A stretch of DNA of 64,000 bases from a virus (taxonomy: Duplodnaviria; Caudoviricetes): IMG/VR virus record IMGVR_UViG_3300017903_002946, positions 16,570-80,569 of that record, one strand, 5' to 3'. A program made the position numbers and the translations under genes. The notes under the pieces were generated by a model, which did not search any database, was not told the origin of the DNA, and saw nothing but the letters and a program-made list of their open reading frames with translations. Below are positions 15,051 to 52,418 of the stretch, piece after piece (the stretch's first letter is position 1; each line of letters opens with the position of its first letter).

Positions 15051-15172
15051 AAGCTACGCTAACTACGCTGCTTTCTAATATTGTTTATTTGAAAAAGATA
15101 GAGAAGCAGGTAGCGAGTGAATTAAAAAGTAGATATATCAAAAACTAGCGTATTTTGCGTAGTTTGTAGTTT
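15051..15172. repeat. Iteron/AT-rich element copy A
   Basis: AAGCTACGCTAACTACGCT...AT-rich core...TTTGCGTAGTTTGTAG; homologous to 24171..24311 and, inverted, to 52299..52418. Confidence 0.85.
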
Positions 15173-15740
15173 GATTCCAAATCAGCAGCACATTACTGCT
15201 TGTTTATTTTGTGTTAATTAACACAAACACAGCCATATATAGTATGTACCATAAAATATCGTAGATATACCCAAATATTTTGGGATACGAGTCGTTGTTT
15301 TTAGTAAGGCACAAAAAAACGCTCTATAGGTTCCTAAAAATGCTACAAAATTTTTGACACGTCTAATCCCTGTTGTACCCGCCTACCCGGTGGAACAAAA
15401 AAAATACACTGAAGTTTTACTTGTGATTTACTTTTGTTCTAACAACAGATTCAAACTCAAGTTTCAATTCATAAGTTTACTTAAGTGTTTCCACATGTTA
15501 GTTGCTTATGTTGTAACAGTTGAGTTTCTACACAAGTTGCAATCGTCTAACTCAAGTCTTACTTTCGTTTAGATCAGATGTTGCAACGTATGTGTAATCA
15601 TTGATGTCACATGTATCTTGCGCCTACTGCATCACTGATGCGTAACGTATACGTGTAGTCATCAATCATCAATTCAATTGTAGAACACACTTCACGTCTA
15701 TCGACGTGTTTAGTTAGTTGTGTTCTTTATATATTTCACT

Positions 15741-15911
15741 ATGTTCAATCCTTATGTCACGCAGATTGCTGCTCAAACTGGCATGACTGAATACGAAGTG
15801 AACCGTGTTGCACGCAGGTCTCCAATCACATTGGAATATGCACAATCACGTGGCTTCGATTCAGTTGCTGAGTACGAGGAAGCACTGCACGAGTTTCTCA
15901 ACTCAAACTGA
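15741..15911 (+). CDS. Early hypothetical protein
   Basis: 56 aa from the ATG after hairpin 1. Confidence 0.6.
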   Translation: MFNPYVTQIAAQTGMTEYEVNRVARRSPITLEYAQSRGFDSVAEYEEALHEFLNSN

Positions 15912-15970
15912 ACACATGAGAGCCCGCCTATCGGCGGGTTTAGTTCATTGTGCTCTTATTGCATAATCAC

Positions 15971-16096
15971 ATGCGTTTGCAAGTTTTGATTCAACAGCAT
16001 CGTGCTCCTAGAACTAGGTTCACTGTGAAGATCAATGATCAGCATCGTGCTTTTAATACTTTTGCTGAAGTGAAGGATTTCCTTCTGTCTCAGTAA
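15971..16096 (+). CDS. Early small protein (41 aa)
   Basis: Hand-translated MRLQVLIQQHRAPRTRF...; flanked by hairpins. Confidence 0.5.
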   Translation: MRLQVLIQQHRAPRTRFTVKINDQHRAFNTFAEVKDFLLSQ

Positions 16097-16156
16097 TAAA
16101 CACTGGAGCCCGTCTATCGACGGGTTTCATACTCCGTGTTCTTTATATACCTTCCA

Positions 16157-16384
16157 ATGATTCCAGGTATGTGTCGTGTCTGGTTCCGTTTACGTGAACC
16201 TGACCCTTCCAATGAATGGAGCAACTGTTGGCAAGATATGCCATATGCTCCACGTAGTTACAACGATTGTGAAGACCTCGTTGATTACTACCAAAGTGAG
16301 TGGGGTAACTTATACAGCTATTGCATTCGCAGTGCTGCATGGGGTGCTTCCCCTTCACCAACTATGCCAGGTTGTCCTGGCTGA
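16157..16384 (+). CDS. Early hypothetical protein
   Basis: ORF between hairpins 3 and 4. Confidence 0.55.
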   Translation: MIPGMCRVWFRLREPDPSNEWSNCWQDMPYAPRSYNDCEDLVDYYQSEWGNLYSYCIRSAAWGASPSPTMPGCPG

Positions 16385-16447
16385 ACACACAAGGGCGTCA
16401 ATCGACGCCTTTATTTGTTTGTGTTCTTTTGATACTTAAGTATCTAC

Positions 16448-16771
16448 ATGCGTAAACTCGCTACTCTTACCAAGATGACTGCCAAAGGTCTGTCAACTTG
16501 GACATTCGCTCAGTGCGATGGTGTATATCTCGCATACGGTGGTATTACCAACCGTTGCCGAGTATTCCGCTCATACGCACAGCTTCAGGACTGCATGGTG
16601 AACTATGCATCCTATGGTTACGATTTGGAGCGTCACACGGCTAAACGCCGTTGGGACAAACCAACTCCAAAACCTGTAAAGAGTGTTGCTTCTATCCAGC
16701 AGGAACTTCCCCTGTATGAAGACACTCAAGCACCACGTCCTGCTGAGGATACTGTGGTTGCTCTCTATTGA
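16448..16771 (+). CDS. Early hypothetical protein
   Basis: 107 aa, ends VVALY. Confidence 0.65.
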   Translation: MRKLATLTKMTAKGLSTWTFAQCDGVYLAYGGITNRCRVFRSYAQLQDCMVNYASYGYDLERHTAKRRWDKPTPKPVKSVASIQQELPLYEDTQAPRPAEDTVVALY

Positions 16772-16851
16772 ACATCTTGCGATACGGCGCTTATCAGCGC
16801 CTTTCTCGCTTTTTGCCCGATTAGGGCTTATTCATTTATTCGTAATTACTT

Positions 16852-17100
16852 ATGCGTTTCAAAGTCCCTGGTCAAGATATCAACGTTCGCCTCTTCGAGC
16901 GCGTTGAGACTGTTGACAATCAGTACGACATCTTTGATGTTGGCATTGAACAAGCAGATGGTTCTATCGACAGCATGGTTGTCGGTGGTTCCTTCTCTTA
17001 TGCCAAGTCCCTTGTCAAAGCTATGGACACTAAGGCTGAAGAAGCTAAGGCTGCAAAAGCAGCTGAAGCTAATGAGCCTGAACTATCTGCAGTTGCTTGA
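16852..17100 (+). CDS. Early hypothetical protein
   Basis: 82 aa; codon style typical of highly expressed genes. Confidence 0.65.
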   Translation: MRFKVPGQDINVRLFERVETVDNQYDIFDVGIEQADGSIDSMVVGGSFSYAKSLVKAMDTKAEEAKAAKAAEANEPELSAVA

Positions 17101-17138
17101 CGCCTATGCGCCCTATCGGGCGCTTTATTTTTCGTTTT

Positions 17139-17576
17139 CTATCTATAGAATGCAGGAACGTTTCCTGGCTTTACTCCTTCGAAAAAGTTAGGAAACTTAG
17201 CCTTACTGGCTTCCATGTTATAACCAGCGGGAGCTGGAATACCTCCTTGAACAGGTGGCATCATCCCACGTATTTGATTTTGTTCTACTTCATGAGTCAT
17301 TCCATAGTCTCGTCTGGGATCGCCAGGAGCCAATTCATTTCCGTAAAGTCCAATAGGCTGGATCGTTGCATCATCTGCAACTCCAGGAATATCCATTTGA
17401 ACCCTACGGTTCAAACCCTGTTTAGGACCTTCAAGTATTGGCATAAGAACATTGGCAGCAAGTTCTGGACCTTCAAGTATTGGCATACGAACATTGGCAC
17501 CAAGTTCTGGACCTTGTCCACTTGTTCCTAAGTTATTGGCCATGTATGCCTGAAGGAAGTCGTTTGCTTGCATCAT
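17139..17576 (-). CDS. Antisense-oriented late-type hypothetical protein with 14-aa tandem repeat
   Basis: GPELGANVRMPILE/GPELAANVLMPILE; upstream AGATACAAT motif. Confidence 0.6.
   Translation of the reverse strand: MMQANDFLQAYMANNLGTSGQGPELGANVRMPILEGPELAANVLMPILEGPKQGLNRRVQMDIPGVADDATIQPIGLYGNELAPGDPRRDYGMTHEVEQNQIRGMMPPVQGGIPAPAGYNMEASKAKFPNFFEGVKPGNVPAFYR
17425..17515. repeat. 42-bp tandem repeat (2 full copies plus a partial)
   Basis: GGACCTT recurs at 17425, 17467 and 17509. Confidence 0.9.
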
Positions 17577-17605
17577 TCTATATCGCAATATTTATATTGT
17601 ATCTA

Positions 17606-17986
17606 TCACCTAAGTAAGATCTGTCCAGGCTCTTGTTGATCTGCTGGACCACCAAAGCTTGCGGCTAGATCTATTAGTCCTTTACCTGCGAGGGTTACAC
17701 CTGCTGCGGGAAGGACGTACTTAGGCACAGCATTAGCTGCAGGAAGTGCATACTCCATAGCATTCCGTGCTCCCCTCTGCATCTTTGTCTCAGGACCATA
17801 AACAAGATGCTCTACTTCACCTTTACGTAAGGACGGGTGTCCGCCTCCTGCTATTACAGCAGCAGTTCTTACAGCTGGATTACTACCCTCGTACATTTTG
17901 TTGATACGAGCGGTGTACGCATCGTCTACTCCACGAGCTCTTTCAAGTAATCCGCTTAAGAATTCACCGGCCTTACGTTTATCCAT
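17606..17986 (-). CDS. Antisense-oriented late-type hypothetical protein
   Basis: 126 aa, starts MDKRKAGE; upstream TACAAT motif. Confidence 0.65.
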   Translation of the reverse strand: MDKRKAGEFLSGLLERARGVDDAYTARINKMYEGSNPAVRTAAVIAGGGHPSLRKGEVEHLVYGPETKMQRGARNAMEYALPAANAVPKYVLPAAGVTLAGKGLIDLAASFGGPADQQEPGQILLR

Positions 17987-18160
17987 AACTTACATTGTTT
18001 CTTTAACCACATTGTATCTACAATGGCGGGTTAAGAACTGGTAAAATTGAATTGATGCTATATACCTTTTATGGCAAATACCTACGTCATCTTTTTATCT
18101 ATGTGGGCTATAGCCTCACTTGGATTGTTATTCAAAGTATTGTATTTCTAACATAAACTT

Positions 18161-18313
18161 ATGACTAAAGCTCATAAATATACTCAACTGTTGCGAAAAG
18201 CTCAACTTGCGACTACTAGAGAAGATGCTATCAAGATACTCGAAAAAGCTTGTAAATTAGAGCTTATTGAGAACGAATATCAATTAAATGCATTTCAGAT
18301 AGCTTGTAAATAA
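18161..18313 (+). CDS. Small hypothetical protein (50 aa)
   Basis: Hand-translated MTKAHKYTQLLRKAQ... Confidence 0.5.
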   Translation: MTKAHKYTQLLRKAQLATTREDAIKILEKACKLELIENEYQLNAFQIACK

Positions 18314-18405
18314 TCGGCATTTACTACTACATTTACCGTATATACCGATTGCTCTATTAGATACTTACTTAGTAAATTAATAGGGCCGGTATATATAAAC
18401 GAGCA

Positions 18406-18639
18406 ATGAGCTTTTTAAATTTGTACGACATTCAATCCTCATTTGATCCTTGGATTAGATATCAACGTCCATCTGTATATGTCATCTCTGACTCTCAATT
18501 GGCCGCTTATAAACGTGAACAAACACAGTCAGAAATTAACGAACTGAACAAGTTAATTGATAGCCATAAAGCTTCAATTGAACGATTGGAAGCACATGTT
18601 TCTGATTTGCAGAAACAACTTGAGCCAACTAAAGATTAA
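18406..18639 (+). CDS. Coiled-coil small protein
   Basis: 77 aa, VYVISDSQL followed by heptads. Confidence 0.65.
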   Translation: MSFLNLYDIQSSFDPWIRYQRPSVYVISDSQLAAYKREQTQSEINELNKLIDSHKASIERLEAHVSDLQKQLEPTKD

Positions 18640-18695
18640 AGCAATGCCGCATAACTGCGGCTTTCTGAATATTTGAATTAATTCAGAAATCACAC

Positions 18696-18821
18696 ATGAT
18701 TGTCTTTGATCAACAAACTATCATTCTGGCTATCATCGGAATGATTGGTTTGCTTTCTACAGCCATCGTTTTATCTACTGCATTCAAGCGTAACCGTACT
18801 GGTTCCGGTAAATGGCAATAA
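18696..18821 (+). CDS. Single-TM small protein (41 aa)
   Basis: MIVFDQQTIILAIIGMIGLLSTAIVLSTAFKR... Confidence 0.5.
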   Translation: MIVFDQQTIILAIIGMIGLLSTAIVLSTAFKRNRTGSGKWQ

Positions 18822-18934
18822 CACCTAACTGGCAAAAGCACAGCAAGAAAGAGGTTAAGTGCAAACTTAAACCTCAAGCTTTGCGTGCACGTAAGGCTGC
18901 ATTGAAAGCATTTAAACGAAAGTATGCCGCTTAA
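18812..18934 (+). CDS. Small basic protein (40 aa)
   Basis: MAITPNWQKHSKKE...KPQALRARK; the stop codon sits in a hairpin loop. Confidence 0.55.
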   Translation: MAITPNWQKHSKKEVKCKLKPQALRARKAALKAFKRKYAA

Positions 18935-18971
18935 CAGCGGCTTTTTTTGTATTGTCCTTTGACTAATAGTC

Positions 18972-19214
18972 ATGACTTTAATTTCCACCAAAGACATTCT
19001 TGCTGAGATGCCTTTGCCAAAAGCTATCGAAAAGAACGTGGATAGCGACTTTAAGTCTTTTCCTCCTGTTGATGACACTATTGTCTGGATCAAGCAGGTG
19101 GATTGGAATGAAGTTGGTATGCGCTGCAAAGGTGGCCTCAATAATGTGGGGCTTGTCCTTGCTGTGACTGGTGAAAAACTCTATGACTTTGGTTGTTGGT
19201 TAGCCAAAGTTTGA
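18972..19214 (+). CDS. Hypothetical protein
   Basis: 80 aa ORF between hairpins. Confidence 0.6.
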   Translation: MTLISTKDILAEMPLPKAIEKNVDSDFKSFPPVDDTIVWIKQVDWNEVGMRCKGGLNNVGLVLAVTGEKLYDFGCWLAKV

Positions 19215-19266
19215 AACTTTAGGCGCTTAACAGCGCCTTTTCTTTCTTGTACTCTTTGAAGATTAC

Positions 19267-19785
19267 ATGAAAGGTATAGCTCAATCCCACTTTGTCGGTA
19301 TTCAGCGTGTACAACCGCACAAGTCGCGGATTGTGCATGCGTTTGACTTGGACGACACTATTACTCAAAAGCCTGATGGCTTTGATAACCGTGGTATGTC
19401 CAAAAATGATTTCTTTGATGCATCCAGAGCATTCGGTCCTGATGACCGCATTGTGGATTTATTACGGATGATGCATCAATGGGGTGATTCAATTGCCATC
19501 TGTACGGCTCGTCCGTCCGATAGGCTTACTGAATCCTACAACTGGCTTCGCAAGTGGAACATCCCATTTGATGTCATCCTTGTGTCTACTGGCGTAGATA
19601 GCAGCGGTAATACAAAGCAGCACATGCTGAAGTATCTCCGCAAAAGCTATCGGATGGTGGGTACTCTCATTGATGACAGTCCCTACAACATAGAAGGCGC
19701 TCGCCTACAACGGATTAAACGCATCCATGTACTCAAGAACTGCGAGTACTGGGATGCACATCCAGAAGTGGTGGTCAAGGTTTGA
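19267..19785 (+). CDS. HAD-family phosphatase (PseT 3'-phosphatase-like)
   Basis: Motif I FDLDDT, motif II ICTAR, motif IV IDDSPYN. Confidence 0.8.
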   Translation: MKGIAQSHFVGIQRVQPHKSRIVHAFDLDDTITQKPDGFDNRGMSKNDFFDASRAFGPDDRIVDLLRMMHQWGDSIAICTARPSDRLTESYNWLRKWNIPFDVILVSTGVDSSGNTKQHMLKYLRKSYRMVGTLIDDSPYNIEGARLQRIKRIHVLKNCEYWDAHPEVVVKV

Positions 19786-19910
19786 TGAAGCTACTTCTCT
19801 ATATATTCCTTGCTCTCTACTTCAATGCAGATGCAAGATCTATCGGCTTATGCCTTCTACCACCTTTGTCTAGTACAGAGACAACTGATATTTGCTTTGA
19901 TGAGCAATAG
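19785..19910 (+). CDS. Small exported/membrane peptide (41 aa)
   Basis: ATG overlaps the upstream TGA; hydrophobic N-terminus. Confidence 0.35.
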   Translation: MKLLLYIFLALYFNADARSIGLCLLPPLSSTETTDICFDEQ

Positions 19911-19956
19911 CCGCCGATTGGCGGCTTTAGTTTCTTGTGTCCAGTACATGATCACA

Positions 19957-20079
19957 ATGACAGACCTTCAAGTACGTGCAGCAAAGCGCACTCGCGAAGA
20001 GTATCTCCGTCAAACCAAAGAGATGATGAGAGATCTTCTTTACCTTCGTAAAGCAGGTAAAACAGCCGTGATTGGTTGA
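19957..20079 (+). CDS. Small hypothetical protein (40 aa)
   Basis: MTDLQVRAAKR...; between hairpins. Confidence 0.5.
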   Translation: MTDLQVRAAKRTREEYLRQTKEMMRDLLYLRKAGKTAVIG

Positions 20080-20139
20080 AAACACACAAGGGCGCTTAAC
20101 TGCGCCTTTCTTTTTTAATGTTCTTTTTCTGAATGCTTA

Positions 20140-20349
20140 ATGGCAATCACCTATGACTTCCAGATTGTTGCTAGCAACATTCCAGGACTTAAGAAGGTGG
20201 TTCCTCAGAACGAAGATGCGTTCTGCTATCTCGTAGATGAAACCGAATACACCATCTTCTCAGATGGTTCTACCGCTCTATTTAACGAGCGTATTGATGA
20301 CTTCATCTCCGATGCAGGCCACGCACATATGTGCTGCAATATCGCTTGA
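20140..20349 (+). CDS. Hypothetical protein
   Basis: 69 aa ORF between hairpins. Confidence 0.6.
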   Translation: MAITYDFQIVASNIPGLKKVVPQNEDAFCYLVDETEYTIFSDGSTALFNERIDDFISDAGHAHMCCNIA

Positions 20350-20408
20350 GTTAACCACTTTTCCCGCTTAGCAGCGGGTTTCGTTCTTTTTGTAAATTCG
20401 AGATCTAT

Positions 20409-20786
20409 ATGACTCAATCATTCAACATTCCCGACAGCATCTCACCGGAGGTGCTTCAAAAGCACCTTAAAAATGCAGTAGTCGATGAACCTATCAATGA
20501 TTTGCCTGAAGATCTTTTTGATCAAGCAGAGCATTGGGTACAGCAAGCTTCATCCAACTCGGACAACCCCATGATTGTCCATAAGTTGATGATTATTGCT
20601 ATCGTCGATCGCATGATTCAGTTCCACGAAGGTATTGCTGAACGTATGGATGAAAAGGGTGATGGGAGACAAGCTGGAGTTTGGCTCAAAGATGCTGGTA
20701 AGTTCCAGGCCATTATGAACATTCTTCAGACGATCGAATGTGGCCCTGATGACCCTATTTGTACTTCTTGTAGTGGTCACCACTAA
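20409..20786 (+). CDS. Hypothetical protein
   Basis: 125 aa ORF between hairpins. Confidence 0.65.
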   Translation: MTQSFNIPDSISPEVLQKHLKNAVVDEPINDLPEDLFDQAEHWVQQASSNSDNPMIVHKLMIIAIVDRMIQFHEGIAERMDEKGDGRQAGVWLKDAGKFQAIMNILQTIECGPDDPICTSCSGHH

Positions 20787-20843
20787 ACACTTTGCCGCTT
20801 AACAGCGGCTTTCTTTTTTTATGTTCTTTATCAAAGTTTCACT

Positions 20844-21326
20844 TTGACTAACACTCAAACTCGCTACGCTCAGTTCAACGCTCTCACCGTCACTGGACGT
20901 ATTTTCAACGCTGAGATCGTGACGCAAGCTGACGGCAGCCAGTTTTTGGCTGTATCCGTTATCAGCACTGCTACCACTGATGGCGCAGACTTGGTGTATA
21001 ACTTCACCAACAACAACGGCCTTATGGGCCTTCACGAGAAGGGCTATTTCGGTAAGGGCCGTCAGGTGACTATCACTGGTCACATCAAAAATGTCAGTGA
21101 GGTCTACACCGACAAGTCTGGCCAAGTGCGTATGCGCAAGCGTCCCGAGATCAGCCTCATTGGAGTGACTGTTCTTGACGGTGGCCTTGGACCTATGCCT
21201 AAAGTTGAGAACAACGTACGTTCTGTTGCAGGCTCTGTTGTCACTCAAGTTGGCACTCCTGCTATTGATGACACTCCTGACTACAGTTCAGAGGCAGAGC
21301 AACAGGAAGAGGTTGCTCTTTATTGA
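20844..21326 (+). CDS. SSB-like OB-fold protein
   Basis: LTVTGRI...GKGRQVTITGHI pattern and an acidic C-terminal tail. Confidence 0.6.
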   Translation: MTNTQTRYAQFNALTVTGRIFNAEIVTQADGSQFLAVSVISTATTDGADLVYNFTNNNGLMGLHEKGYFGKGRQVTITGHIKNVSEVYTDKSGQVRMRKRPEISLIGVTVLDGGLGPMPKVENNVRSVAGSVVTQVGTPAIDDTPDYSSEAEQQEEVALY

Positions 21327-21423
21327 ATAAATTCCTGGCCGTGTATCCCACGGCTGGGATTTTTCTTTTTTCAAACTATAAACATTAATCAGAACCACGC
21401 AGCAGGATTATAAGTAGCAAGCT

Positions 21424-22509
21424 TTAAGCAAATCTGTTGCTCATTAGCTTGTTATATGCAAGACCCAGCTTCTCCATAGCCTTTTCTGTACCTGGACGTC
21501 TGACAACAGTGACTATTCCAGTCTTATCCCGTCCTTGTAAACCTTGTTTAAACAGCTCACGTTCTTTTCGTGCAGCAGCATTACGTGCATCCATTGCTTC
21601 ACGGCTAGATCTGATTTGATCAGTACCAATAACATTGGCTGCTGCTTGAACAGCATTTGTTGTACCGTAAGCAGCATTTGTCGCTGCATTTACGTGAGAT
21701 GGGTTAGTTAACTTGTTATGCCATGCAGCAACGGTACTACCACGACCAGTCGGGTGGTACATCGTACTTTTCAAGTCTTTAGCACTGACATTAAGAGCAG
21801 CATCTGCTGACAATATTGTCGCTAACTCTTTTAAAAATGGTAGATCTACTTCACCTGCAAAACGAGACATTCGCAATTGCGGCGTTACTTGATCAACTAA
21901 CGAATGAATAGCATCAGCATTACTAGTCCCAGGCAAAATAATATGTGCACCATGAGCACCTTCACCTTTGAAGAACTGACGATTAATCGGATCAAAGTGG
22001 GCAATGTTATGAGCTGGCGCAGAAAGAGGTATCAATCCGCTGTATGCCTGACTAGTAATGGGCAATTCCTTGCCAGCACCATATAACGTGTCACCCCAGT
22101 TTTCATATGACTGATTACCTGTAATAGTAGCAACTGACCCAGCAGGCACACCATGATGAATTTCACCTCCATGCCAACCCCTAATCATATTCATCTCAGA
22201 TGCAGTCTTATTTAAAGGGCCACGAACCAAACTAAGTGCCGTCTCAAACGGTACGTCCTTTAATTCAGGATTCTCCTTATACAACTGCTGGACTTTATTT
22301 AACACAGGTTCAAACAAAGCAGTAGATTCAGCATTCAATAAGTTGTTTGCTCTACTAATATCTTGACGAATTCGTGGGTTTAATGACCTGCCATCAGACA
22401 TTAGCTTCGATGCAAGTACGTTGTACAACATCACCTTTGACTGATAGTTAGGGTCGTTTGTAATTAACTTGTGATTAATAGCCTTATTACCTTGCCAAAG
22501 TTTTCCCAC
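21424..22509 (-). CDS. Antisense-oriented protein with possible HNH-like nuclease motif
   Basis: 361 aa; EIHHGVP...LIPLSAPAHNIAH. Confidence 0.55.
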   Translation of the reverse strand: MGKLWQGNKAINHKLITNDPNYQSKVMLYNVLASKLMSDGRSLNPRIRQDISRANNLLNAESTALFEPVLNKVQQLYKENPELKDVPFETALSLVRGPLNKTASEMNMIRGWHGGEIHHGVPAGSVATITGNQSYENWGDTLYGAGKELPITSQAYSGLIPLSAPAHNIAHFDPINRQFFKGEGAHGAHIILPGTSNADAIHSLVDQVTPQLRMSRFAGEVDLPFLKELATILSADAALNVSAKDLKSTMYHPTGRGSTVAAWHNKLTNPSHVNAATNAAYGTTNAVQAAANVIGTDQIRSSREAMDARNAAARKERELFKQGLQGRDKTGIVTVVRRPGTEKAMEKLGLAYNKLMSNRFA

Positions 22510-22629
22510 TCATATACATACCTATGTTTATTTAATTCGCATAAGTATCAACATCTACTATTTGATTGTATAAACTTTTGGGACGCTAATTAGCGTCTCT
22601 CGTTATTAACGTCCTTTCAACTATTTCTT

Positions 22630-22857
22630 ATGGACACGCAAATGGTTTTGATTGCTAAATCACAAGTTGAACAACTTCTTGTGCAACTTCAACGAGCAGA
22701 AGGATATTGTTTGAAGGCTCGTCCTGTTAGTTTTCCTATGTCTCGTGAAGATTTATTTGCAGAACCAACTGAGTTTTACTCAGGTGCATCTGGATATGCT
22801 CGGTCTACAATGCGTCAGGTAATTGACACTCTTGAATCACATCTTCAAGATGTTTGA
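22630..22857 (+). CDS. Hypothetical protein
   Basis: 75 aa after the hairpin at 22582. Confidence 0.6.
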   Translation: MDTQMVLIAKSQVEQLLVQLQRAEGYCLKARPVSFPMSREDLFAEPTEFYSGASGYARSTMRQVIDTLESHLQDV

Positions 22858-22865
22858 GCTAGGGT

Positions 22866-22946
22866 AATTACAGGCAGGAAGAAGAACGACGTCACTGCCT
22901 ACCCGATCGGGTTACAGGCATTTTTGTCGTTTCTGTCTGTGTAATT
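22866..22946 (+). ncRNA. Candidate long nested stem-loop RNA upstream of the tRNA cluster
   Basis: Nested pairings AATTA/TAATT, CAGGCAG/CTGTCTG, AACGAC/GTCGTT, TGCCT/AGGCA, ACCCGA/TCGGGT. Confidence 0.4.
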
Positions 22947-22981
22947 GAAAAGGCTGCCTCGTGGTGGCCTTTCCCCCAAAT

Positions 22982-23065
22982 GCCTAGGTGGCGGAATAGG
23001 TAGACGCATCGGACTTAAAATCCGCTGACATTTATGTCGTGCGAGTTCAAGTCTCGCTCTAGGTA
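22982..23065 (+). tRNA. tRNA-Leu(UAA)
   Basis: Cloverleaf GCCTAGG/TCTAGGT, anticodon loop CT-TAA-AA, long variable arm, GTTCAAG T-loop; no encoded CCA. Confidence 0.95.
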
Positions 23066-23104
23066 TTATTTAGTTAAAGTAATTATGTTGAAAGAAATAT
23101 ATAT

Positions 23105-23395: not shown

Positions 23396-23459
23396 CTCAG
23401 TTGGATAGAGCATCGCTCTTCTAAAGCGTCGGTCGTTGGTTCGAATCCAACCGGAATCG
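23386..23459 (+). tRNA. tRNA-Arg(UCU)
   Basis: GGTTCCG/CGGAATC acceptor stem, anticodon CT-TCT-AA, TTCGAAT T-loop. Confidence 0.93.
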
Positions 23460-23461
23460 TT

Positions 23462-24165: not shown

Positions 24166-24170
24166 AAAGT

Positions 24171-24311
24171 TACGATAAGCTACGATAAGCTACGCTAACT
24201 ACGCTAGCTTCTATATACTGTTTTTAAAAATAAGAGAAGAGAATAATGAGCAGTTCTAATAAAAAAAGACATATATAAAGAACTACTGTAGTTTGCGTAG
24301 TTTTTTGTAGC
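24171..24311. repeat. Iteron/AT-rich element copy B
   Basis: TACGATAAGC x2 then TACGCTAAC TACGCTAGC; 19 nt identical to copy A; inverted CGTAG repeats at the right end. Confidence 0.85.
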
Positions 24312-24489: not shown

Positions 24490-24630
24490 ATGAAACGAGT
24501 AACAGTTGTGTTTCCGCCTGATCTACACAAGCTTCTCAAGCTCAAGAGTGTCAACGAAGATAGAACAATGAACGACCTCATACTTACAGCTGTACGTAAG
24601 TACATCAGTAAATCTAGTTCAGATATATAA
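24490..24630 (+). CDS. Ribbon-helix-helix (CopG/ParG-like) regulator, 46 aa
   Basis: Hand-translated MKRVTVVFPPDLHKLLKLKSVNEDRTMNDLILTAVRKYI; classic RHH pattern. Confidence 0.75.
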   Translation: MKRVTVVFPPDLHKLLKLKSVNEDRTMNDLILTAVRKYISKSSSDI

Positions 24631-40414: not shown

Positions 40415-41174
40415 TAAACCTTATAGAATTCAAACTTCTGCCGGACATAGAAAATATCTATGCTCCGGCATTTATATGCCAAGTGTAACCACTGTATTAT
40501 CTGCCACTGAATCAGAAAAATCTAAAGCAGGTTTACGTACATGGCAAAAGAATAATCCGGGTGCGCTAGAGGAGGCATCTACTCGCGGCTCTGCTATTCA
40601 TCTTGGTTGTGAAAACTATATTCGTGGATTGGATCCCAATATTCCTGATGAATTTCAAGAATTTTGGAATGGTATTTCGACATACCTAGATTGGTTTGAT
40701 ACAATTCATTGGTCAGAGCGTCCTTTACGTCCTGATTGGAATCACCTTAGAAGTGATGACAAAGAAGTTGCTTACGTTTGGAGTACAGAACATCGATATG
40801 CTGGTTGTCCAGATTTAATCGGTGAAATTGGCGGTGTACGAGTTATTGCTGATTTTAAAACAAGCAATACTCCTTACTGCTCAACTTTTCCTGAACGTGG
40901 TGACCGTATGGGTTTTGGCGGTTATCGCAAATATACTAAGTGTGCTCAACAAATGGCTGCTTATCGGTATGCCTTAAATGAGCGGACAGGGTTTCTTTGT
41001 GATGTTGCCCTTATCATTGTTTCTACACCGGAAACAACACAAGGAATATTTATTGATGGAGATCAACTAGCTCTTCACGAATCGCGTTTTTTAAAACGTT
41101 GTCAACAATTTCATGAGATAGATAATGAAACTAAGGATTGCAGTCAACAAGAATTGCAAGAACAAACTAACTAA
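40404..41174 (+). CDS. PD-(D/E)xK exonuclease
   Basis: PSVTTVL, RGSAIH, AGCPDL, ADFKTS, QMAAY. Confidence 0.88.
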   Translation: MTTDKPYRIQTSAGHRKYLCSGIYMPSVTTVLSATESEKSKAGLRTWQKNNPGALEEASTRGSAIHLGCENYIRGLDPNIPDEFQEFWNGISTYLDWFDTIHWSERPLRPDWNHLRSDDKEVAYVWSTEHRYAGCPDLIGEIGGVRVIADFKTSNTPYCSTFPERGDRMGFGGYRKYTKCAQQMAAYRYALNERTGFLCDVALIIVSTPETTQGIFIDGDQLALHESRFLKRCQQFHEIDNETKDCSQQELQEQTN

Positions 41175-43347
41175 ACCTGCACATGATTGGCAAAATATTA
41201 ACGAAGATATTGAATGGTTACTTGGTTGGGTTCAGCAAGGTTATGGCTGGTGCGCAACTCATTTTCATAACAGGCATCGTAAATCTGATAATTCAGTAGG
41301 TTCAAATGTCATTGTTATTGATTTTGATGGAGATACTTCGCTTGCACGTTTTTGGTCAACTGACACTGCTCGACATTGGTGTGCTGCTACTTATACGTCT
41401 GCAAGCCACAGTGAACAAGAACATCGGTTTCGAGCTCTTTTTCCACTAGCTCGATTGCTTAATAGCTCTGCAGAACATCGTGGTGCCTACTGGCTTATTG
41501 TTAATCGATTACTTGCTGAGTTAGAGCTTGAAGGGCTCGCTGACAATTGCGGTCAAAAACCTGAACGGCTTTGGTTTGGAAATTCAAATACTGAAATTCA
41601 ATCAAATAAAGAATGTGAACCTGTACCTGAGTTCTTGCTAGAAGATATTGCTTATGAAGAAGCCTCAAACTTTAATAGTTCAGACATTACTGATATAGAT
41701 ATTAAACGCTGTCAGTGGCTTCTAGAATCCTTTTTACGCCCTTCTGAAGATGGTGAGTATGAAACCTATTATGTGCCTGTCATGGCTGCTTGTGCAGGCA
41801 TTGGTGAACCTATGTTCGATTCATGGGTTACATGGGTATTAAATGGCCATCACGGAGAAAAGCAAGAAAATATTCAACCATTTAAGTGGCGAGGTCTCGG
41901 TAATTATTCAGGTCATACTACACTTTATTCGCTTGCTAAAAAGCAAGATCCAGATTGGGCTAAAAAACTTCCTGTTAATCTAAGATTTGGTGCTCTTGGA
42001 GCTGCCGGAGGTTATACCGAGTTTGATCCTATTCATAACTTTGATAAGTACATAAATACAATGGAATTAAGCGCACAACAAAATGACATTGACATCGAAC
42101 CAATTCCTGATTCACAGCAAGTAAAACGTAGAGGGCGTCCAAAAAAATCATCTGATGATCTTGCAAAAGAACGTGAAAGCGATGTTACTAAGGTAAAAGA
42201 TATTCTTCACGATTTACGTAAAAATGAACTAACAAGTGCAATTGAGTACACTGACAACCAAGGTCAAACTATTGCTTTGCAAGGTAACGACCTTGATCTA
42301 ATGACTGTTAAAGTTGCATGTGAAAATGGTATTTTTATTCCAGAAGCACGTATTAAAAGCGCGATTCAATATGCAGCATCTAAAAATTTATACTGCCCAA
42401 TCAAAAAGTATCTAGAGAAGTGTGCTGCAACTTGTGCACCACATACTGATTGGAATCGTGTAGGAAAAATATTTCTTGGCAACAGTTATGCAATTGCTAC
42501 AACTGCAATGCAACGCATGATGATTGGTGCTGTAGCACGTGCATTTAATCCTGGATGTTCTATGTCTTGGCTTCCGATTTTAGTAGGTCCTCAAGGAGCT
42601 GGTAAATCTATGTTTGCTCGGTGCCTTGTACCCCAAAACCTTTTTTCAGAAATTACTACACCACTAGAAACTCTGATGAAAGAGCAATATCGATTGCATG
42701 TTGCATGGCTTTTAGAGCTTCCTGAAATTGATAACTATTTTAATTCACGTAACATTGAAAACTTTAAAAATCTTGTTACTACAAGAGTAGATGAAGTTAG
42801 ATTTCCTTATGCATCTTTACCAAGCAAATTGGCTCGTAGGTTTGTTCTGATTGGAACGACTAATAGAAATCAATTTTTGGTTGATAGTACTGGCAATAGA
42901 CGCTTTGTACCACTTGAAATTGGTCCTAACTTTCAAATCCCTTGGAAGGAGCTTAATATTCAACGAGATTATCTTTGGTCAGCAGCTGTTCACGCATATA
43001 GAAATGGAGAAGGTTACGAATTTAATAGTGGCGAAATTGCTGCTATTGCTGATTACATCCAAGAGTTTGGTGATCCAGATCCTTGGCTTGACAAAGTTGC
43101 ATCTTATGTAGCTATTCGTGATGAAGTAAGTGCTGCGGAAGTTTTAACTAACGCACTAGAGCTTGATCCTCGCAGTCAAGGCAGAAGAGAAGGACGAAGA
43201 GTTGCAGATATTCTCCAGTCAATGGGATGGAGACGTCTTGTCACTTCACGAAAAGATCCACTTACAAACAAATCAAAATCTGTTCGTATTTGGCAGCGTC
43301 CTAGCAATGATCCTCTTATTGAAGATCACATATTGAACGACTTTTAA
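41125..43347 (+). CDS. AEP-type primase fused to VirE/VapE-family helicase-ATPase
   Basis: N-terminal VIDFDG and YTSASH...RFRALF; C-terminal GPQGAGKS, LELPEID, GTTN...TGNRRF. Confidence 0.88.
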   Translation: MKLRIAVNKNCKNKLTKPAHDWQNINEDIEWLLGWVQQGYGWCATHFHNRHRKSDNSVGSNVIVIDFDGDTSLARFWSTDTARHWCAATYTSASHSEQEHRFRALFPLARLLNSSAEHRGAYWLIVNRLLAELELEGLADNCGQKPERLWFGNSNTEIQSNKECEPVPEFLLEDIAYEEASNFNSSDITDIDIKRCQWLLESFLRPSEDGEYETYYVPVMAACAGIGEPMFDSWVTWVLNGHHGEKQENIQPFKWRGLGNYSGHTTLYSLAKKQDPDWAKKLPVNLRFGALGAAGGYTEFDPIHNFDKYINTMELSAQQNDIDIEPIPDSQQVKRRGRPKKSSDDLAKERESDVTKVKDILHDLRKNELTSAIEYTDNQGQTIALQGNDLDLMTVKVACENGIFIPEARIKSAIQYAASKNLYCPIKKYLEKCAATCAPHTDWNRVGKIFLGNSYAIATTAMQRMMIGAVARAFNPGCSMSWLPILVGPQGAGKSMFARCLVPQNLFSEITTPLETLMKEQYRLHVAWLLELPEIDNYFNSRNIENFKNLVTTRVDEVRFPYASLPSKLARRFVLIGTTNRNQFLVDSTGNRRFVPLEIGPNFQIPWKELNIQRDYLWSAAVHAYRNGEGYEFNSGEIAAIADYIQEFGDPDPWLDKVASYVAIRDEVSAAEVLTNALELDPRSQGRREGRRVADILQSMGWRRLVTSRKDPLTNKSKSVRIWQRPSNDPLIEDHILNDF

Positions 43348-48622: not shown

Positions 48623-48633
48623 AAAAGTAAGTG

Positions 48634-48683
48634 CGTTGAAAGTCTTTGACTTCGCAAGTAAGCCTTGAGGGCTGAAGCAACGG
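48634..48683 (+). ncRNA. Glutamine-I (glnA) riboswitch
   Basis: CGTTG/CAACG P1, AAGTC/GACTT P2, CGCAAGTA...GAAG E-loop, AGCC/GGCT P3; matches the glnA motif architecture. Confidence 0.88.
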
Positions 48684-48712
48684 AAATTCATTCACACTTA
48701 TTGGAGTACATT

Positions 48713-48920: not shown

Positions 48921-48961
48921 GTAATTTCCTACAATAGATAGATGGTAAATATATTAAATAG

Positions 48962-49642: not shown

Positions 49643-49644
49643 AT

Positions 49645-50362: not shown

Positions 50363-50396
50363 GTGTATGTTTTAGTTACACAAAGTCTAACTCCAT

Positions 50397-50732
50397 TTAT
50401 ACAAAGGTGAGACCATCGTCTTCTAAATCATCATCTTCCCATCCTTCATCCATGATGTCAGTGGGTAATTCTTCAGAGTTTTCAACATTTAATTCAAGCA
50501 ATTCACAAAATGTTTCTTCAGAAATTATTTCAGGAAGCCCACTTTGCTGCTCATCAATTTTAAAAATGATGCCATTAGACATTAGTGTTTCTTGAACACC
50601 ATTTTTTTGTTCCATTCTTGATTTAAGCAGCCGTAAAGCTGTCTTCTCTAACGCTGGTCGGCTCATTCTCATAACTTCGTATCTCGCTCTCGTAAGAGCA
50701 AAACGTTGCTCGATTGTTAACTGTGCATTCAT
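50397..50732 (-). CDS. nblA: NblA-like protein with acidic C-terminal extension
   Basis: LTIEQRF...V..MS...L...QETL aligns without gaps to the NblA pattern LSLEQQF...V..MS...L...QELL (recalled). Confidence 0.6.
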   Translation of the reverse strand: MNAQLTIEQRFALTRARYEVMRMSRPALEKTALRLLKSRMEQKNGVQETLMSNGIIFKIDEQQSGLPEIISEETFCELLELNVENSEELPTDIMDEGWEDDDLEDDGLTFV

Positions 50733-51075
50733 CTAGTTCTTCCTCAATAAATCTTTTGTTTAAAATCCATTCTTCAATTAATTCTTTGGCAGTTTCGTTG
50801 TAAAACACTTGCCGTTCAAACCATATTAACCATGATTCTGAACCTTTTGAGTGGTTGCATGTTTGACAGCAAGGAATAAGGTTGCTTCTAAGACTGCTAC
50901 CCCCTTTTGATTTTGGTTTTATGTGATCCAGTGTTGTTGCTCGATTAGAGCGACAATATGCACATAAGCCGCCCCAGCCGTATTTAATTGACTTGCGGAA
51001 CTTACGCTTAGCAGAGCCTTTAGAAAGGCAATCTAGGTTGAACATTAAGTCAGCCCAGTCTTCAGCGATACCCAT
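50623..51075 (-). CDS. HNH endonuclease
   Basis: CAYC...LDHIKPKSKGG...NLIPCCQTCNHSK. Confidence 0.88.
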   Translation of the reverse strand: MGIAEDWADLMFNLDCLSKGSAKRKFRKSIKYGWGGLCAYCRSNRATTLDHIKPKSKGGSSLRSNLIPCCQTCNHSKGSESWLIWFERQVFYNETAKELIEEWILNKRFIEEELDECTVNNRATFCSYESEIRSYENEPTSVREDSFTAA

Positions 51076-51146
51076 TCGTTCTTATTTAAGGAACTTACTA
51101 AGAATGTAACGTAGCTCCGTTCTTTTTATGTACTTAAGTAATATTT

Positions 51147-51383
51147 TTAGCGAGTCTGACTTATAACAAGTTCATCTAATTTTTCTTCAATTCGAATCAT
51201 ATGACCTTCTACACGCTCTAGTGTTTTTTCAAAATCATTTTTTGTCACATAATTTTGTGCCATGCTTAATTCAACTCCATCAATTCTTTTGTCTAAATTA
51301 TCTAATTTAGAGCTTAGTTTTGATGTAAGCACAAAACCACCAGTAACTACAGCTATAGTAGCACTAATAATCGACTCAATCAT
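51147..51383 (-). CDS. TM plus coiled-coil protein (possible lysis accessory)
   Basis: 78 aa. Confidence 0.55.
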   Translation of the reverse strand: MIESIISATIAVVTGGFVLTSKLSSKLDNLDKRIDGVELSMAQNYVTKNDFEKTLERVEGHMIRIEEKLDELVISQTR

Positions 51384-51470
51384 GATTTAAATGAATATGA
51401 GGCCTTTTCTTAATTGTATCTCATATAAATACTTATTTTTTTCTAGAATACTTTCAAAGCAATCTTATTC

Positions 51471-51872
51471 ATGAATTTAGAACTTGACGAGCTATATTGT
51501 CATCCCGCTCTTTATATTGCTAGATCTGATACACATCGTTGGGGTGTGTTTACATCTGACGATATTGAAATGCATGATGTTTTACAAGAATCTCCTTACT
51601 GTACGTTTCCGTACAAAGAGCTTTCTAAAAAATCAGATATACTTGTCCGCTATACATACGATTCAGCTGATAATAACCAGACTGACGAATCAATATTAGG
51701 TTTCGGATTCGCTGGATTATACAATCACTCAGTTGATTATAATGCAGCTTACGAACTTGATACAGTCAATGAAGTCATGCGTCATTATGCAACAGAAGAT
51801 ATTCCTGCTGGATCTGAAATTTTTATTAATTATGGATATGAAGAAGATGAAGAAGACTTTGGTGACTACTGA
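51471..51872 (+). CDS. SET-domain protein-lysine methyltransferase
   Basis: WGVF...I...QESP, GLYNHS..YN, ATEDIPAGSEIFINYG. Confidence 0.88.
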   Translation: MNLELDELYCHPALYIARSDTHRWGVFTSDDIEMHDVLQESPYCTFPYKELSKKSDILVRYTYDSADNNQTDESILGFGFAGLYNHSVDYNAAYELDTVNEVMRHYATEDIPAGSEIFINYGYEEDEEDFGDY

Positions 51873-52116
51873 TCTTTTTTGACTGATTTATGGCGGTATG
51901 AGATAGTCCATCCATCTTCACCAAATATGCCTGTTTCTTTCGATTCCCAAGGATCCTCAGAAACTAATTGTGCATCGAGCCACTCTTGTTCTGCTCTGTC
52001 TAGTTTACTAGGCAAGGTTGCATAAAACTTTTGCTCATTTATTGCACGACGAAGTTTTTCGGTTGGACTTCTAGTGTCAAACCGATAAATCCATTTACCG
52101 TCATGCGGTATGTTGC

Positions 52117-52260
52117 TTAAGCCTTTTTTCCAGGCTTAATTGCATTGATTGCAGAAAGCACCAACTGAACAACACTGTTTGACTTCAAAGGAGTTAAAGC
52201 AATAATTTCAGAAGCTGCTGCAACTACAATCCAAAAAATTGGAGATTCGATAATACCCAT
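52117..52260 (-). CDS. Small membrane protein, possible holin (47 aa)
   Basis: Hand-translated MGIIESPIFWIVVAAASEIIALTPLKSNSVVQLVL... Confidence 0.5.
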   Translation of the reverse strand: MGIIESPIFWIVVAAASEIIALTPLKSNSVVQLVLSAINAIKPGKKA

Positions 52261-52298
52261 TTCTCTATTTATAGGTTTGTCATTATTCTAACTACTTT

Positions 52299-52418
52299 GC
52301 TACACAAACTACGCCTATATTTTATATATCTAGTTATTTATTAGCTACTACTGCCTATATACATTTTTAGAAAACAGTATATAAGCAGTAACGTAGTTAG
52401 CGTAGTTTCTGTAGTTGC
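52299..52418. repeat. Iteron/AT-rich element copy C (inverted), overlapping the recombinase stop codon
   Basis: Reverse complement reads CTACGCTAACTACG...TATATACTGTTTT...CTAATAAA...ATATATAAA...GCGTAGTTTGTGTAGC. Confidence 0.85.

What the first reader, a model, noticed from the sequence alone, without database searches (positions are those of the whole stretch)
15051..52418. Three homologous ~120-140 bp iteron/AT-rich elements, one overlapping the end of a tyrosine recombinase
Seen: A (15051..15172) and B (24171..24311) are direct copies sharing an identical 19-mer. C (52299..52418) is inverted and includes the recombinase stop codon (CTA CAG AAA CTA CGC TAA). Each copy has tandem CTACG repeats at one end, inverted CGTAG repeats at the other and a colinear AT-rich core. 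A lies at the divergence point of the two transcription blocks and C near their convergence. Known: PICI/P4-type origins are iterons around an AT-rich core bound by a primase/helicase, and a VirE-type primase-helicase is encoded here; Cre/Xer-type recombinases lack arm-binding domains, as this one appears to. Inference: either a multi-origin replication system, or a recombination system able to excise the ~9 kb early/tRNA segment (A x B) and invert 28-37 kb (A or B x C).
Basis: partly seen in the sequence, partly recalled or inferred. Interest (0 to 1): 0.85.

Follow-up and report, generated by a model that had tools for sequence, protein, structure and literature searches.

The report
Three iteron origin-like elements in cyanophage
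An uncultured marine cyanophage carries three copies of a ~130-bp element built like the replication origins of staphylococcal satellite elements, so they are most likely loading sites for the phage's own primase-helicase and not recombination sites.

Summary
A, B and C are the only three copies in the complete 80.6-kb genome. Each has 2-4 CTAC(G/A) iterons at a 9-bp period, a 70-90-bp AT-rich core (23-27% GC against 41%) and an inverted iteron array.

The phage belongs to the uncultured marine S-EIV1-like cyanophage lineage (psbA, talC, RNR, split PolA, integrase). I found 173 copies in relatives, in only four fixed genomic contexts. The arms are almost invariant while the flanking proteins fall to 30-80% identity.

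Best reading (about 0.5): SaPI/P4-type origins or loading sites for the 740-aa primase + VapE/SF3 helicase + winged-helix-like protein. That protein is homologous to SaPI Rep1. Published SaPI5 iterons are 7-mers with 2-nt spacers (9-bp period), three tandem plus one inverted, in opposed sets around a ~100-bp AT-rich region. This is the same geometry.

The recombination reading is not supported:
- There is no lox/dif-type core site.
- The five complete genomes are collinear.
- Relatives without the recombinase keep the elements.

Two things remain unexplained. C occurs in both orientations across lineages but never among close relatives. A and B have a fixed orientation and sit at the heads of transcription units, which keeps a promoter/operator reading alive (about 0.25).

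The parts
15043..15169 (+). Element A. Left iteron arm 15043-15067, AT-rich core (27% GC) with a GATATATC box at 15132-15139, right inverted arm 15149-15169. The left arm is about 35 bp from the start codon (15011) of the first minus-strand late gene. The right arm faces the early genes.
   Evidence: (I2, D11). The same context and orientation occur in all five complete genomes.
24170..24310 (+). Element B. Left arm with four iterons (TTACG, CTACG x3; 24170-24203), core (23% GC) with an ATATATA box at 24271-24277, and right arm 24281-24310 that includes the palindrome AACTAC-T-GTAGTT.
   Evidence: (I1, D11). In relatives B always points towards the RHH/DUF932 genes (37/37). In 16 of 32 relatives it is preceded by an intrinsic terminator.
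52292..52416 (-). Element C, inverted relative to A and B. Left arm 52416-52392, which contains the recombinase stop codon 52399-52397. Core (23% GC) with an ATATATA box at 52329-52323. Right arm 52313-52292, about 30 bp upstream of a 47-aa membrane-protein ORF.
   Evidence: (I1, I2). In relatives C is found in both orientations between the same flanking genes (47 same, 41 opposite).
41125..43347 (+). 740-aa primase-helicase, the candidate iteron-binding initiator. It has an N-terminal primase-like domain (residues 21-163), a VapE/SF3 ATPase domain (about 410-640) and a conserved C-terminal domain (about 650-740) with a helix-helix-beta-hairpin pattern.
   Evidence: Pfam VapE-like_dom E 5e-48. 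PHROG DNA primase/helicase families. SaPI1 Rep1 (PDB 7PDS) E 4.9e-17 as a single sequence and 6.5e-22 as a profile. CTD 74-90% identical in the 120 listed homologues (386 hits). AF2 model pLDDT 54. All top structural matches are winged helices, the best being the ORC2 WH domain at Z 7.3, which is not decisive.
52397..53164 (-). 255-aa tyrosine recombinase adjacent to C. Candidate catalytic residues, assigned by reading the sequence: R (GFR), K, HxxR (HGIRH), H (VGH), Y (ASYG). It has no arm-binding domain. It is probably not the iteron binder.
   Evidence: Pfam Phage_integrase E 3e-9. phrog_1 integrase, profile positions 168-447 of 611. Sequence. Absent next to C in six related loci.
24490..24630 (+). 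46-aa ribbon-helix-helix protein, the first gene downstream of B. Relatives carry other RHH types at this position. It is a possible local regulator but an unlikely iteron binder, because the beta-strand residues differ between lineages while the iterons do not.
   Evidence: Pfam RHH_5 E 9e-4, below the curated cut-off.

Best explanation
The three elements are SaPI/P4-type replication origins, or origin-like loading or enhancer sites, for the phage's own self-loading primase-helicase (window 41125-43347).

Proposed mechanism:
1. The C-terminal winged-helix domains of a helicase hexamer bind the 7-nt iterons ((A/G)(A/G)CTAC(G/A), 2-nt spacers, 9-bp period) of one arm.
2. A second hexamer binds the opposed arm.
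3. The 70-90-bp AT-rich core with its TATATA boxes is melted.
4. The fused primase starts synthesis.

Three dispersed copies would give several initiation sites on an 80-kb genome, as in T4 or SPP1. Alternatively there is one true origin plus cis-acting enhancers, like P4 ori and crr (the T4, SPP1 and P4 comparisons are from my own knowledge).

What is shown: the architecture, the conservation, the synteny, and the homology of the helicase to SaPI Rep1.

What is inferred: that this protein binds the iterons, and that replication starts there.
For: (1) Architecture. Each element has 2-4 direct iterons, a core of 70-90 bp at 23-31% GC, and 2-3 inverted iterons. The 9-bp spacing was seen 200 times in left arms and 155 times in right arms.

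Published SaPI origins have 6-12 penta/hexanucleotide iterons, half on each side of a central AT-rich region and pointing in opposite directions. They are bound by the winged helix of the Rep CTD (PMC9371898). In SaPI5 the iteron TGCAACC is separated by AA (9-bp period). Four CTDs of one hexamer bind three tandem iterons plus one inverted iteron, around a 102-bp AT-rich region (bioRxiv 10.64898/2026.10.17.759575). In 54% of the elements here the right arm likewise has three tandem plus one inverted iteron.

(2) The genome encodes a primase + VapE/SF3 helicase + CTD protein of PriRep/P4-alpha architecture. It is homologous to SaPI1 Rep1.

(3) The CTD is 74-90% identical across the lineage, with Arg/Lys residues invariant in the predicted beta-hairpin. 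This parallels the near-invariant iterons. Its low-confidence model matches only winged-helix domains, with the ORC2 WH domain best.

(4) The sites look like protein-binding sites, not hairpins. In B of G001 and G003 the spacers between iterons are not complementary between the two arms, yet the CTAC cores are kept. No Rfam family matches.

(5) Strong purifying selection. There are 173 copies in only four syntenic contexts, with the arms kept while neighbouring proteins fall to 30-80% identity.

(6) The freshwater relative S-EIV1 has a different primase-helicase (Prim-Pol/D5-type) and no such element.
Against: - None of the three copies is adjacent to the primase-helicase gene. SaPI origins lie immediately downstream of rep.
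- Three copies per genome are unusual for this origin type.
- A, B and the extra copy X in G004 have a fixed orientation relative to their neighbouring genes (B 37/37). They sit exactly at the heads of transcription units, and half of the B copies have a terminator just upstream. A symmetric origin does not require this, and it fits a promoter/operator.
- The right half of the core is better conserved than the left.
- Cumulative GC skew gives no origin signal.
- The CTD fold assignment rests on a poor model (pLDDT 54, Z at most 7.3).
- No binding, melting or replication data exist.
Confidence: 0.5

Rival explanations
1. Promoter/operator modules. Each element would carry outward (or inward) promoters centred on the TATATA boxes. 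The iterons would be operators for one conserved phage or host regulator, so that A drives the early (rightward) and late (leftward) units, B drives the middle unit, and C drives a small late unit. If the phage is temperate, this could be the set of sites for a master repressor.
For: - A lies at the divergence of the late and early blocks, with its left arm 32-40 bp from the first late start codon in all five genomes, even though that first gene is not homologous between them.
- B is always co-oriented with the downstream RHH/DUF932 genes (37/37). In 16 of 32 cases an intrinsic terminator ends about 20 nt before its left arm, so a new transcript must start at or after B.
- C sits 10-45 bp upstream of a conserved 47-aa ORF.
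- The extra copy in G004 lies exactly between a stop codon and the next ATG, co-oriented with the operon.
- No other sigma-70-like promoter is seen between B and the next gene.
Against: - The TATATA box lacks the T at the sixth (-7) position of the TAnnnT -10 hexamer (own knowledge of the consensus), and there is no -35 box.
- The phage's apparent host-type promoters look different (CTACAATAGAT, that is TACAAT, three exact copies 20-30 nt upstream of start codons).
- The TATATAG motif is not used elsewhere in the genomes.
- C occurs in both orientations in front of the same genes.
- No regulator with conserved specificity was found. The RHH proteins next to B differ in their DNA-reading strand between lineages, and no HTH repressor was detected among the early genes.
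Confidence: 0.25
2. Recombination sites of the adjacent tyrosine recombinase: A x B excision, A/B x C inversion, or flipping of the core of C as an invertible switch.
For: - The recombinase gene abuts C in every recombinase clade of the lineage, and its stop codon often lies in the outer iterons.
- The candidate catalytic residues are all present, judged by reading the sequence printed.
- C is found in both orientations between the same flanking genes (47:41). On the recombinase tree the orientation needs at least 5 changes.
Against: - The five complete genomes are collinear. There is no deletion of the A-B segment and no inversion of the 28-37-kb segments.
- There is no lox/dif/FRT-like core, meaning two inverted binding elements around a 6-8-bp spacer.
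- The arms are identical although the recombinases are only 31-35% identical.
- Six loci, including the complete genome G001, lack the recombinase next to C and keep the element.
- Among C-C pairs whose two flanks are both at least 80% identical, 27 are concordant and 0 are inverted, so flipping is rare and not phase variation.
- The recombinase tree and the element-plus-downstream flank are mosaic relative to each other, which explains the scatter on the tree.
- The opposite-orientation class is internally coherent (67% core identity), suggesting one old event.
- A and B, with the same arms, never flip.
Confidence: 0.06
3. A selfish miniature inverted-repeat element (MITE-like), or a repeat kept alike by gene conversion, without a function for the phage.
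For: - The terminal arms are near-perfect 14-bp inverted repeats.
- One sub-lineage (G004 and relatives) has gained a fourth copy exactly between two coupled structural genes, possibly with a TA duplication.
- The cores show partial concerted evolution between copies.
Against: - There are only four contexts among 173 copies, and all are syntenic across genomes whose proteins have diverged to 30-80% identity.
- The copies within one genome are only 53-60% identical in the core, while the arms and TATATA boxes are kept. That is selection on defined sub-motifs, not recent transposition.
- No transposase was found among the genes I scanned.
- The target-site duplication is not significant.
Confidence: 0.05

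Closest known systems
Replication origins of staphylococcal pathogenicity islands (SaPI1, SaPIbov1, SaPI5), bound by self-loading Rep/PriRep helicases (PMC9371898; bioRxiv 10.64898/2026.10.17.759575)
   Same: - Short iterons (5-7 nt) in two opposed sets around a central AT-rich region of about 80-100 bp.
- In SaPI5, 7-mers with 2-nt spacers (9-bp period), three tandem plus one inverted.
- An initiator that is a (primase-)SF3 helicase with a C-terminal winged helix. The phage protein is homologous to Rep1 in the ATPase domain (E 5e-17).
   Different: - There are three dispersed copies per genome, none next to the helicase gene. The SaPI ori is single and lies immediately downstream of rep.
- The element is shorter (about 130 bp against about 300 bp).
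- It carries conserved TATATA boxes and an asymmetric core.
- It sits in a full-size cyanophage, not a satellite.
- Binding is untested.
Satellite phage P4 ori plus crr, bound by the alpha primase-helicase (own knowledge, not read here)
   Same: One multifunctional primase-helicase with a C-terminal DNA-binding domain recognises short iterons, in both orientations, at more than one locus of the same genome. The second locus acts in cis as a replication enhancer.
   Different: - P4 iterons (TGTTCACC type) and their arrangement differ.
- P4 has two loci 4.5 kb apart, not three homologous dyad elements 9 and 28 kb apart.
Phages with several origins: SPP1 oriL/oriR bound by G38P, and the T4 and T7 promoter-linked origins (own knowledge)
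   Same: Repeated initiator-binding boxes next to an AT-rich unwinding region occur at two or more distant places in one phage genome. In T4 and T7 the origins coincide with promoters, which would reconcile the two leading readings here.
   Different: The initiator families are different. No evidence exists yet that any of the three elements fires.
Invertible promoter switches with an adjacent tyrosine recombinase (E. coli fimS with FimB/FimE; Bacteroides invertons) (own knowledge)
   Same: An AT-rich segment flanked by inverted repeats lies directly next to a small tyrosine recombinase that lacks an arm-binding domain. C exists in both orientations in nature.
   Different: - The segment is only about 80 bp.
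- The arms are iteron arrays, not recombinase core sites.
- No orientation differences are seen among close relatives.
- Identical elements far from the recombinase never flip.
- The element persists without the recombinase.

Membership tests
SaPI/PICI-type origin of a self-loading Rep helicase | 6-12 short (penta- to heptanucleotide) iterons | tested here: met
   Each element has 2-4 CTAC units in the left arm and 2-3 GTAG units in the right arm. 54% of elements carry a further inverted unit. The period is 9 bp.
SaPI/PICI-type origin of a self-loading Rep helicase | Iterons split into two sets, on either side of a central AT-rich region, pointing in opposite directions | tested here: met
   All 152 unique copies have this layout. 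The core is 70-90 bp. Core GC is 31% on average across relatives and 23-27% in this genome, against 41% for the window.
SaPI/PICI-type origin of a self-loading Rep helicase | Located immediately downstream of the rep (or pri-rep) gene, single copy | tested here: not met
   There are three copies. From the primase-helicase gene (41125-43347) they lie 26 kb (A) and 17 kb (B) upstream and 9 kb (C) downstream. The layout is the same in all five complete genomes.
SaPI/PICI-type origin of a self-loading Rep helicase | A cognate SF3 or MCM helicase with a C-terminal winged helix is encoded by the same genome | tested here: inconclusive
   Helicase homology to Rep1 (7PDS) is clear (E 4.9e-17 and 6.5e-22), and the primase domain is present. 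The CTD model has pLDDT 54. The top structural matches are all winged helices, but with Z at most 7.3.
SaPI/PICI-type origin of a self-loading Rep helicase | The Rep CTD binds the iterons, melts the AT-rich region and supports replication | not testable with these tools
   This needs EMSA or footprinting, permanganate probing and a replication assay.
Core site of a simple tyrosine recombinase (lox/dif/FRT type) | Two inverted 11-13-bp binding elements around a 6-8-bp crossover spacer | tested here: not met
   The left arm consists of direct repeats only. The only inverted pair (AACTAC-n-GTAGTT) has a 1-nt spacer. The arms themselves are 70-90 bp apart.
Core site of a simple tyrosine recombinase (lox/dif/FRT type) | Recombination products (deletion or inversion between sites) occur among relatives, and the sites are lost when the recombinase is lost | tested here: not met
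   The five genomes are collinear. The elements are kept in six loci without a recombinase, including the complete genome G001.
Invertible promoter switch (inverton) | Both orientations coexist within closely related genomes or within one population | tested here: inconclusive
   C is 47 same to 41 opposite across the lineage. Among C-C pairs with both flanks at least 80% identical, 27 are concordant and 0 inverted. Reads within a single population were not available.
MITE | Terminal inverted repeats with a target-site duplication, and many copies at unrelated sites | tested here: not met
   Inverted arms are present. But only four syntenic contexts occur among 173 copies, and the only new insertion has at most an ambiguous TA duplication.
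Sigma-70 (SigA) promoter | A -10 hexamer TAnnnT, with or without a -35 TTGnnn at 16-18 nt | tested here: not met
   The consensus scans find no promoter-like site inside any of the three elements or in B of G001. The conserved box is TATATA, with A at the last position.

The most novel reading that the evidence does not exclude
The elements are dual replication-transcription switches. Loading of the primase-helicase on the arms opens the TATATA-flanked core, and this opening (or the bound initiator) is also what lets host RNA polymerase start the early, middle and late units. Gene expression would then be coupled to origin firing.

This reading would explain four things together:
- the absence of sigma-70 boxes;
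- the fixed orientation of A and B;
- the terminators just upstream of B;
- the placement of the elements exactly at the heads of the transcription units in a globally distributed cyanophage lineage.
Probability: 0.12. Interest if true: 0.8.

Novelty: new variant of a known kind. Interest (0 to 1): 0.5.

Why it matters
The lineage is a widespread, still uncultured group of marine cyanophages. Nothing is known about its replication or gene control. The paper that described the lineage does not mention these repeats.

If the elements are origins, this would move the SaPI-type 'self-loading helicase plus opposed iterons' design from satellites into a full-size phage, and it would show it in three dispersed copies. 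It would also give a simple, testable cis/trans pair: about 130 bp of DNA and one protein domain. That pair could be used to build replicons for marine Synechococcus or Prochlorococcus, and to read phage replication activity from metagenomic coverage.

If instead they are operators, they mark all the main transcription starts of the phage.

In both cases the finding removes the more dramatic idea of programmed 9-kb excision or 28-37-kb inversion.

Tried and rejected
- **Read mapping.** I therefore made no read-level test for junction isoforms, for the orientation of C within one population, or for coverage peaks. I did not try to get around this.
- **Cumulative GC skew.** Profiles of five genomes aligned on A show a general decline with no minimum or maximum at the elements. 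They are uninformative.
- **RNA or hairpin/cruciform reading.** There is no Rfam match. The spacers between iterons are not complementary between the arms in several copies. Rejected.
- **TATATAG or TATAGGGG as a phage-wide promoter motif.** Neither is enriched outside the elements.
- **RHH protein as the iteron binder.** The beta-strand residues differ between lineages (RVTVV, KLQVQ, RIDVK, RVNFN) while the iterons do not. Unlikely.
- **HTH repressor among the early genes.** None was detected by Pfam.
- **Copy in a host genome.** The strict dyad pattern hit no cyanobacterial genome in 185,579 species genomes. Of the four stretches matched, one carries a real element, on a 2.6-kb contig binned as a Flavobacteriales MAG that is probably phage DNA. 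The other three carry none. This does not exclude prophage copies with variant arms.
- **S-EIV1, the closest isolate (TerL 56% identical).** No element was found, either with the profile or with a generic search for dyad iteron arrays.
- **Co-variation test with distant VapE homologues.** Both searches returned only the same lineage (CTD at least 74% identical), so no lineage with altered iterons was available.
- **Gene conversion from A as the source of the opposite-orientation C.** This was suggested by two genomes but is only weakly supported in the large set.
- **Foldseek on the CTD model.** No match at E <= 0.001.

Full report
**What the window is.** The window is bases 16570-80569 of an 80,569-bp IMG/VR virus record with a 141-bp terminal overlap, so the genome is complete.

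It encodes psbA, transaldolase, class II RNR, ThyX, a split family-A DNA polymerase, an exonuclease, three tRNAs, a tyrosine recombinase and a VapE-type primase-helicase. Its terminase is 56% identical to that of Synechococcus phage S-EIV1, the closest isolate.

This is the uncultured marine cyanophage lineage described by Flores-Uribe et al. (bioRxiv 10.1101/325100). That paper does not mention the repeats.

**The observation.** A (15043-15169, +), B (24170-24310, +) and C (52292-52416, -) are real and homologous, with 72% mean column identity.

- The 14-mer CTACGCTAACTACG occurs exactly three times in the whole genome, once per element. A profile of the three copies finds no further copy.
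- A and B share an identical 19-mer.
- The recombinase stop codon lies in the left arm of C.

**Anatomy.** I collected 16 copies from five complete genomes and 173 copies (152 unique) from IMG/VR and metagenome contigs. The consensus layout, left to right, is:

1. Two to four iterons (A/G)(A/G)CTAC(G/A), with 2-nt spacers and a strict 9-bp period.
2. About 8 nt of spacer.
3. CTATATAC.
4. An A/T tract.
5. A variable 20-30 bp stretch.
6. ATTAAAAA..AG(G/A)TATATAG.
7. AAAA.
8. Often one inverted iteron (AACTAC-n-GTAGTT).
9. Two or three iterons in the inverted orientation.

The cores are 70-90 bp long. Their GC content is 23-27% here and 31% on average, against 41% for the genome.

The two halves mirror each other out to the TATATA box, but the right half is the better conserved. 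In some copies the spacers between iterons are not complementary between the arms (for example CTAA against CAAAC) while the CTAC cores are kept. So the selection acts on protein-binding sites, not on a hairpin. Rfam finds nothing.

**Distribution.** Every complete genome of the lineage has copies in the same three contexts:

- **A** lies between the first late gene and the early genes. The left arm is 32-40 bp from the late start codon, even though that first gene is not homologous between genomes.
- **B** lies upstream of one or two ribbon-helix-helix genes and, usually, DUF932 and psbA.
- **C** lies between the recombinase and a 47-aa membrane-protein ORF.

One sub-lineage (G004) has a fourth copy, placed exactly between the stop codon and the start codon of two structural genes that overlap in the other genomes.

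The arms are almost invariant, whereas neighbouring proteins are 30-80% identical. S-EIV1 has no such element and uses a different primase-helicase (Prim-Pol/D5-type).

**Testing the recombination reading.**

- The five genomes are collinear after rotation, with no strand-discordant blocks. There is no A x B deletion and no 28-37-kb inversion. The only rearrangement is a relocated psbA/talC module in G004.
- The arms contain no lox/dif-type core.
- The recombinase has its candidate catalytic residues intact but varies down to 31% identity between genomes whose arms are identical.
- It is missing next to C in six loci, including the complete genome G001, which keeps all three elements.

One unexpected fact points the other way. 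C is found in both orientations between the same flanking genes (47 same, 41 opposite), whereas B is 37/37 in one orientation and A is also fixed. On the recombinase tree the orientation needs at least five changes.

However, three further results weaken that point:

- The recombinase gene and the element-plus-downstream region are mosaic relative to each other.
- Among C-C pairs whose two flanks are both at least 80% identical there are 27 concordant pairs and no inverted pair.
- The opposite-orientation class is internally coherent, at 67% core identity.

So this looks like an old dimorphism spread by homologous exchange, not like phase variation. I could not look at reads.

**Testing the origin reading.** The 740-aa protein has three parts:

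- An N-terminal primase-like domain (phrog_2135).
- A VapE/SF3 ATPase domain that matches SaPI1 Rep1 (PDB 7PDS) at E 4.9e-17, and at 6.5e-22 with a profile.
- A C-terminal ~100 residues that are 74-90% identical throughout the lineage, with invariant basic residues in a predicted beta-hairpin.

A shallow-alignment AlphaFold model of this CTD is poor (pLDDT 54). It shows a helix-helix-beta-hairpin arrangement. Its structural neighbours are uniformly winged-helix DNA-binding domains, with the ORC2 winged helix on top (Z 7.3, rmsd 3.2 A, 78 residues). That score is in the range the tool calls middling.

The literature on SaPI Reps states the following (PMC9371898):

- The origin has 6-12 penta/hexanucleotide iterons.
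- Half of them lie on each side of a central AT-rich region, pointing in opposite directions.
- They are bound by the winged helix of the Rep CTD.
- One hexamer is thought to load on each side.

The 2026 PriRep5-ori structures add detail (bioRxiv 10.64898/2026.10.17.759575). The SaPI5 iterons are TGCAACC separated by AA, which is a 9-bp period. Four CTDs of one ring contact three tandem iterons and one inverted iteron. The central AT-rich region is 102 bp.

The cyanophage elements reproduce this geometry almost point for point. What does not fit the family definition is position and number. There are three dispersed copies, and none is next to the helicase gene.

**The promoter/operator rival.** Several facts are what a promoter module would look like:

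- The elements sit at the heads of transcription units.
- Half of the B copies have an intrinsic terminator ending about 20 nt before the left arm.
- The orientation of A, B and the extra copy is fixed.

Against it:

- The conserved box is TATATA, without the -7 T, and there is no -35 box.
- The phage's evident host-type promoters are of a different form, CTACAATAGAT.
- C works in either orientation.
- I found no regulator with conserved specificity.

The two readings are not exclusive, because the T4 and T7 origins are promoters.

**Verdict.** The recombination interpretation is not supported.

The most likely function is origin-type loading of the phage's self-loading primase-helicase (about 0.5). 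A promoter/operator role is the main rival (about 0.25), and a combined role is the most interesting open possibility.

The element is undescribed as far as the searched literature shows. It is a new variant of a known kind of system, not a new kind.

Noticed in passing
window 15322-15407: A ~90-nt non-coding block about 150 bp downstream of A is very strongly conserved across the lineage (consensus CCCTATAGGGGGCTAAAAATGCTACAAAATTTTTGACA..TAATACCCTCTGTACCCG..GGTGGAACAAAAAAAATAA). It is far better conserved than the surrounding early region. It contains a TTGACA, but I recognised no matching -10 box. A consensus fold gives only weak structure.
   Followed up: partly
window 24311-24490 and the corresponding regions of L126, L129, L137 and L141: Between B and the RHH gene, all five genomes carry the motif GTACCCCAA. 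It reads in one direction in the genomes with the 46-50-aa RHH and in the opposite direction (TTGGGGTAC) in the genomes with two RHH + Cys-rich paralogues. It is a possible RHH operator.
   Followed up: no
window 6008-6018 (+), 48929-48939 (+), 61630-61640 (-): There are three exact copies of CTACAATAGAT, each 20-30 nt upstream of a start codon. A one-mismatch copy lies at 13462-13472 (-). The motif contains a good TACAAT -10 hexamer and is probably the phage's host-type promoter.
   Followed up: partly
window 15690-30840: A family of GC-stem hairpins with a TTAACA-type loop followed by TTT (for example GCCGCTTAACAGCGGCTTT) separates the small early genes. Nine or more copies were picked up by the repeat finder. 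They look like terminators or RNA-processing sites.
   Followed up: no
G002 (L130), genome positions about 23209-25450: In this relative the primase-helicase gene is read in two frames: a 555-aa ORF, then the conserved C-terminal part in another frame. This is either an assembly frameshift or a genuine split.
   Followed up: no
G004 (L139-L142): In this relative the DUF932/psbA/talC module lies at the end of the replication block, just before C, instead of right after B. The genome also has the fourth element copy, at 5841-5952.
   Followed up: partly
window 52397-52420 and the homologous ends in relatives: Recombinases that are only about 35% identical end with the same peptide, (Q)LQKLR*. 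The last codons are the outer iterons of C, in either orientation of the element.
   Followed up: partly
window 48632-48686: A glutamine (glnA-type) riboswitch aptamer scores above the Rfam gathering threshold (39.5 bits). It lies just after the DNA polymerase gene.
   Followed up: no
window 57203-60898 and 61672-63939: Two large minus-strand ORFs (1231 and 755 aa) share several segments that are 79-87% identical at the DNA level. They are probably paralogous tail-fibre genes.
   Followed up: no
window 29421-30352: Nested tandem repeats lie inside two adjacent plus-strand ORFs. One has units of about 132/201 nt and the other has nine 21-nt units. They encode a highly repetitive basic protein.
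   Followed up: no
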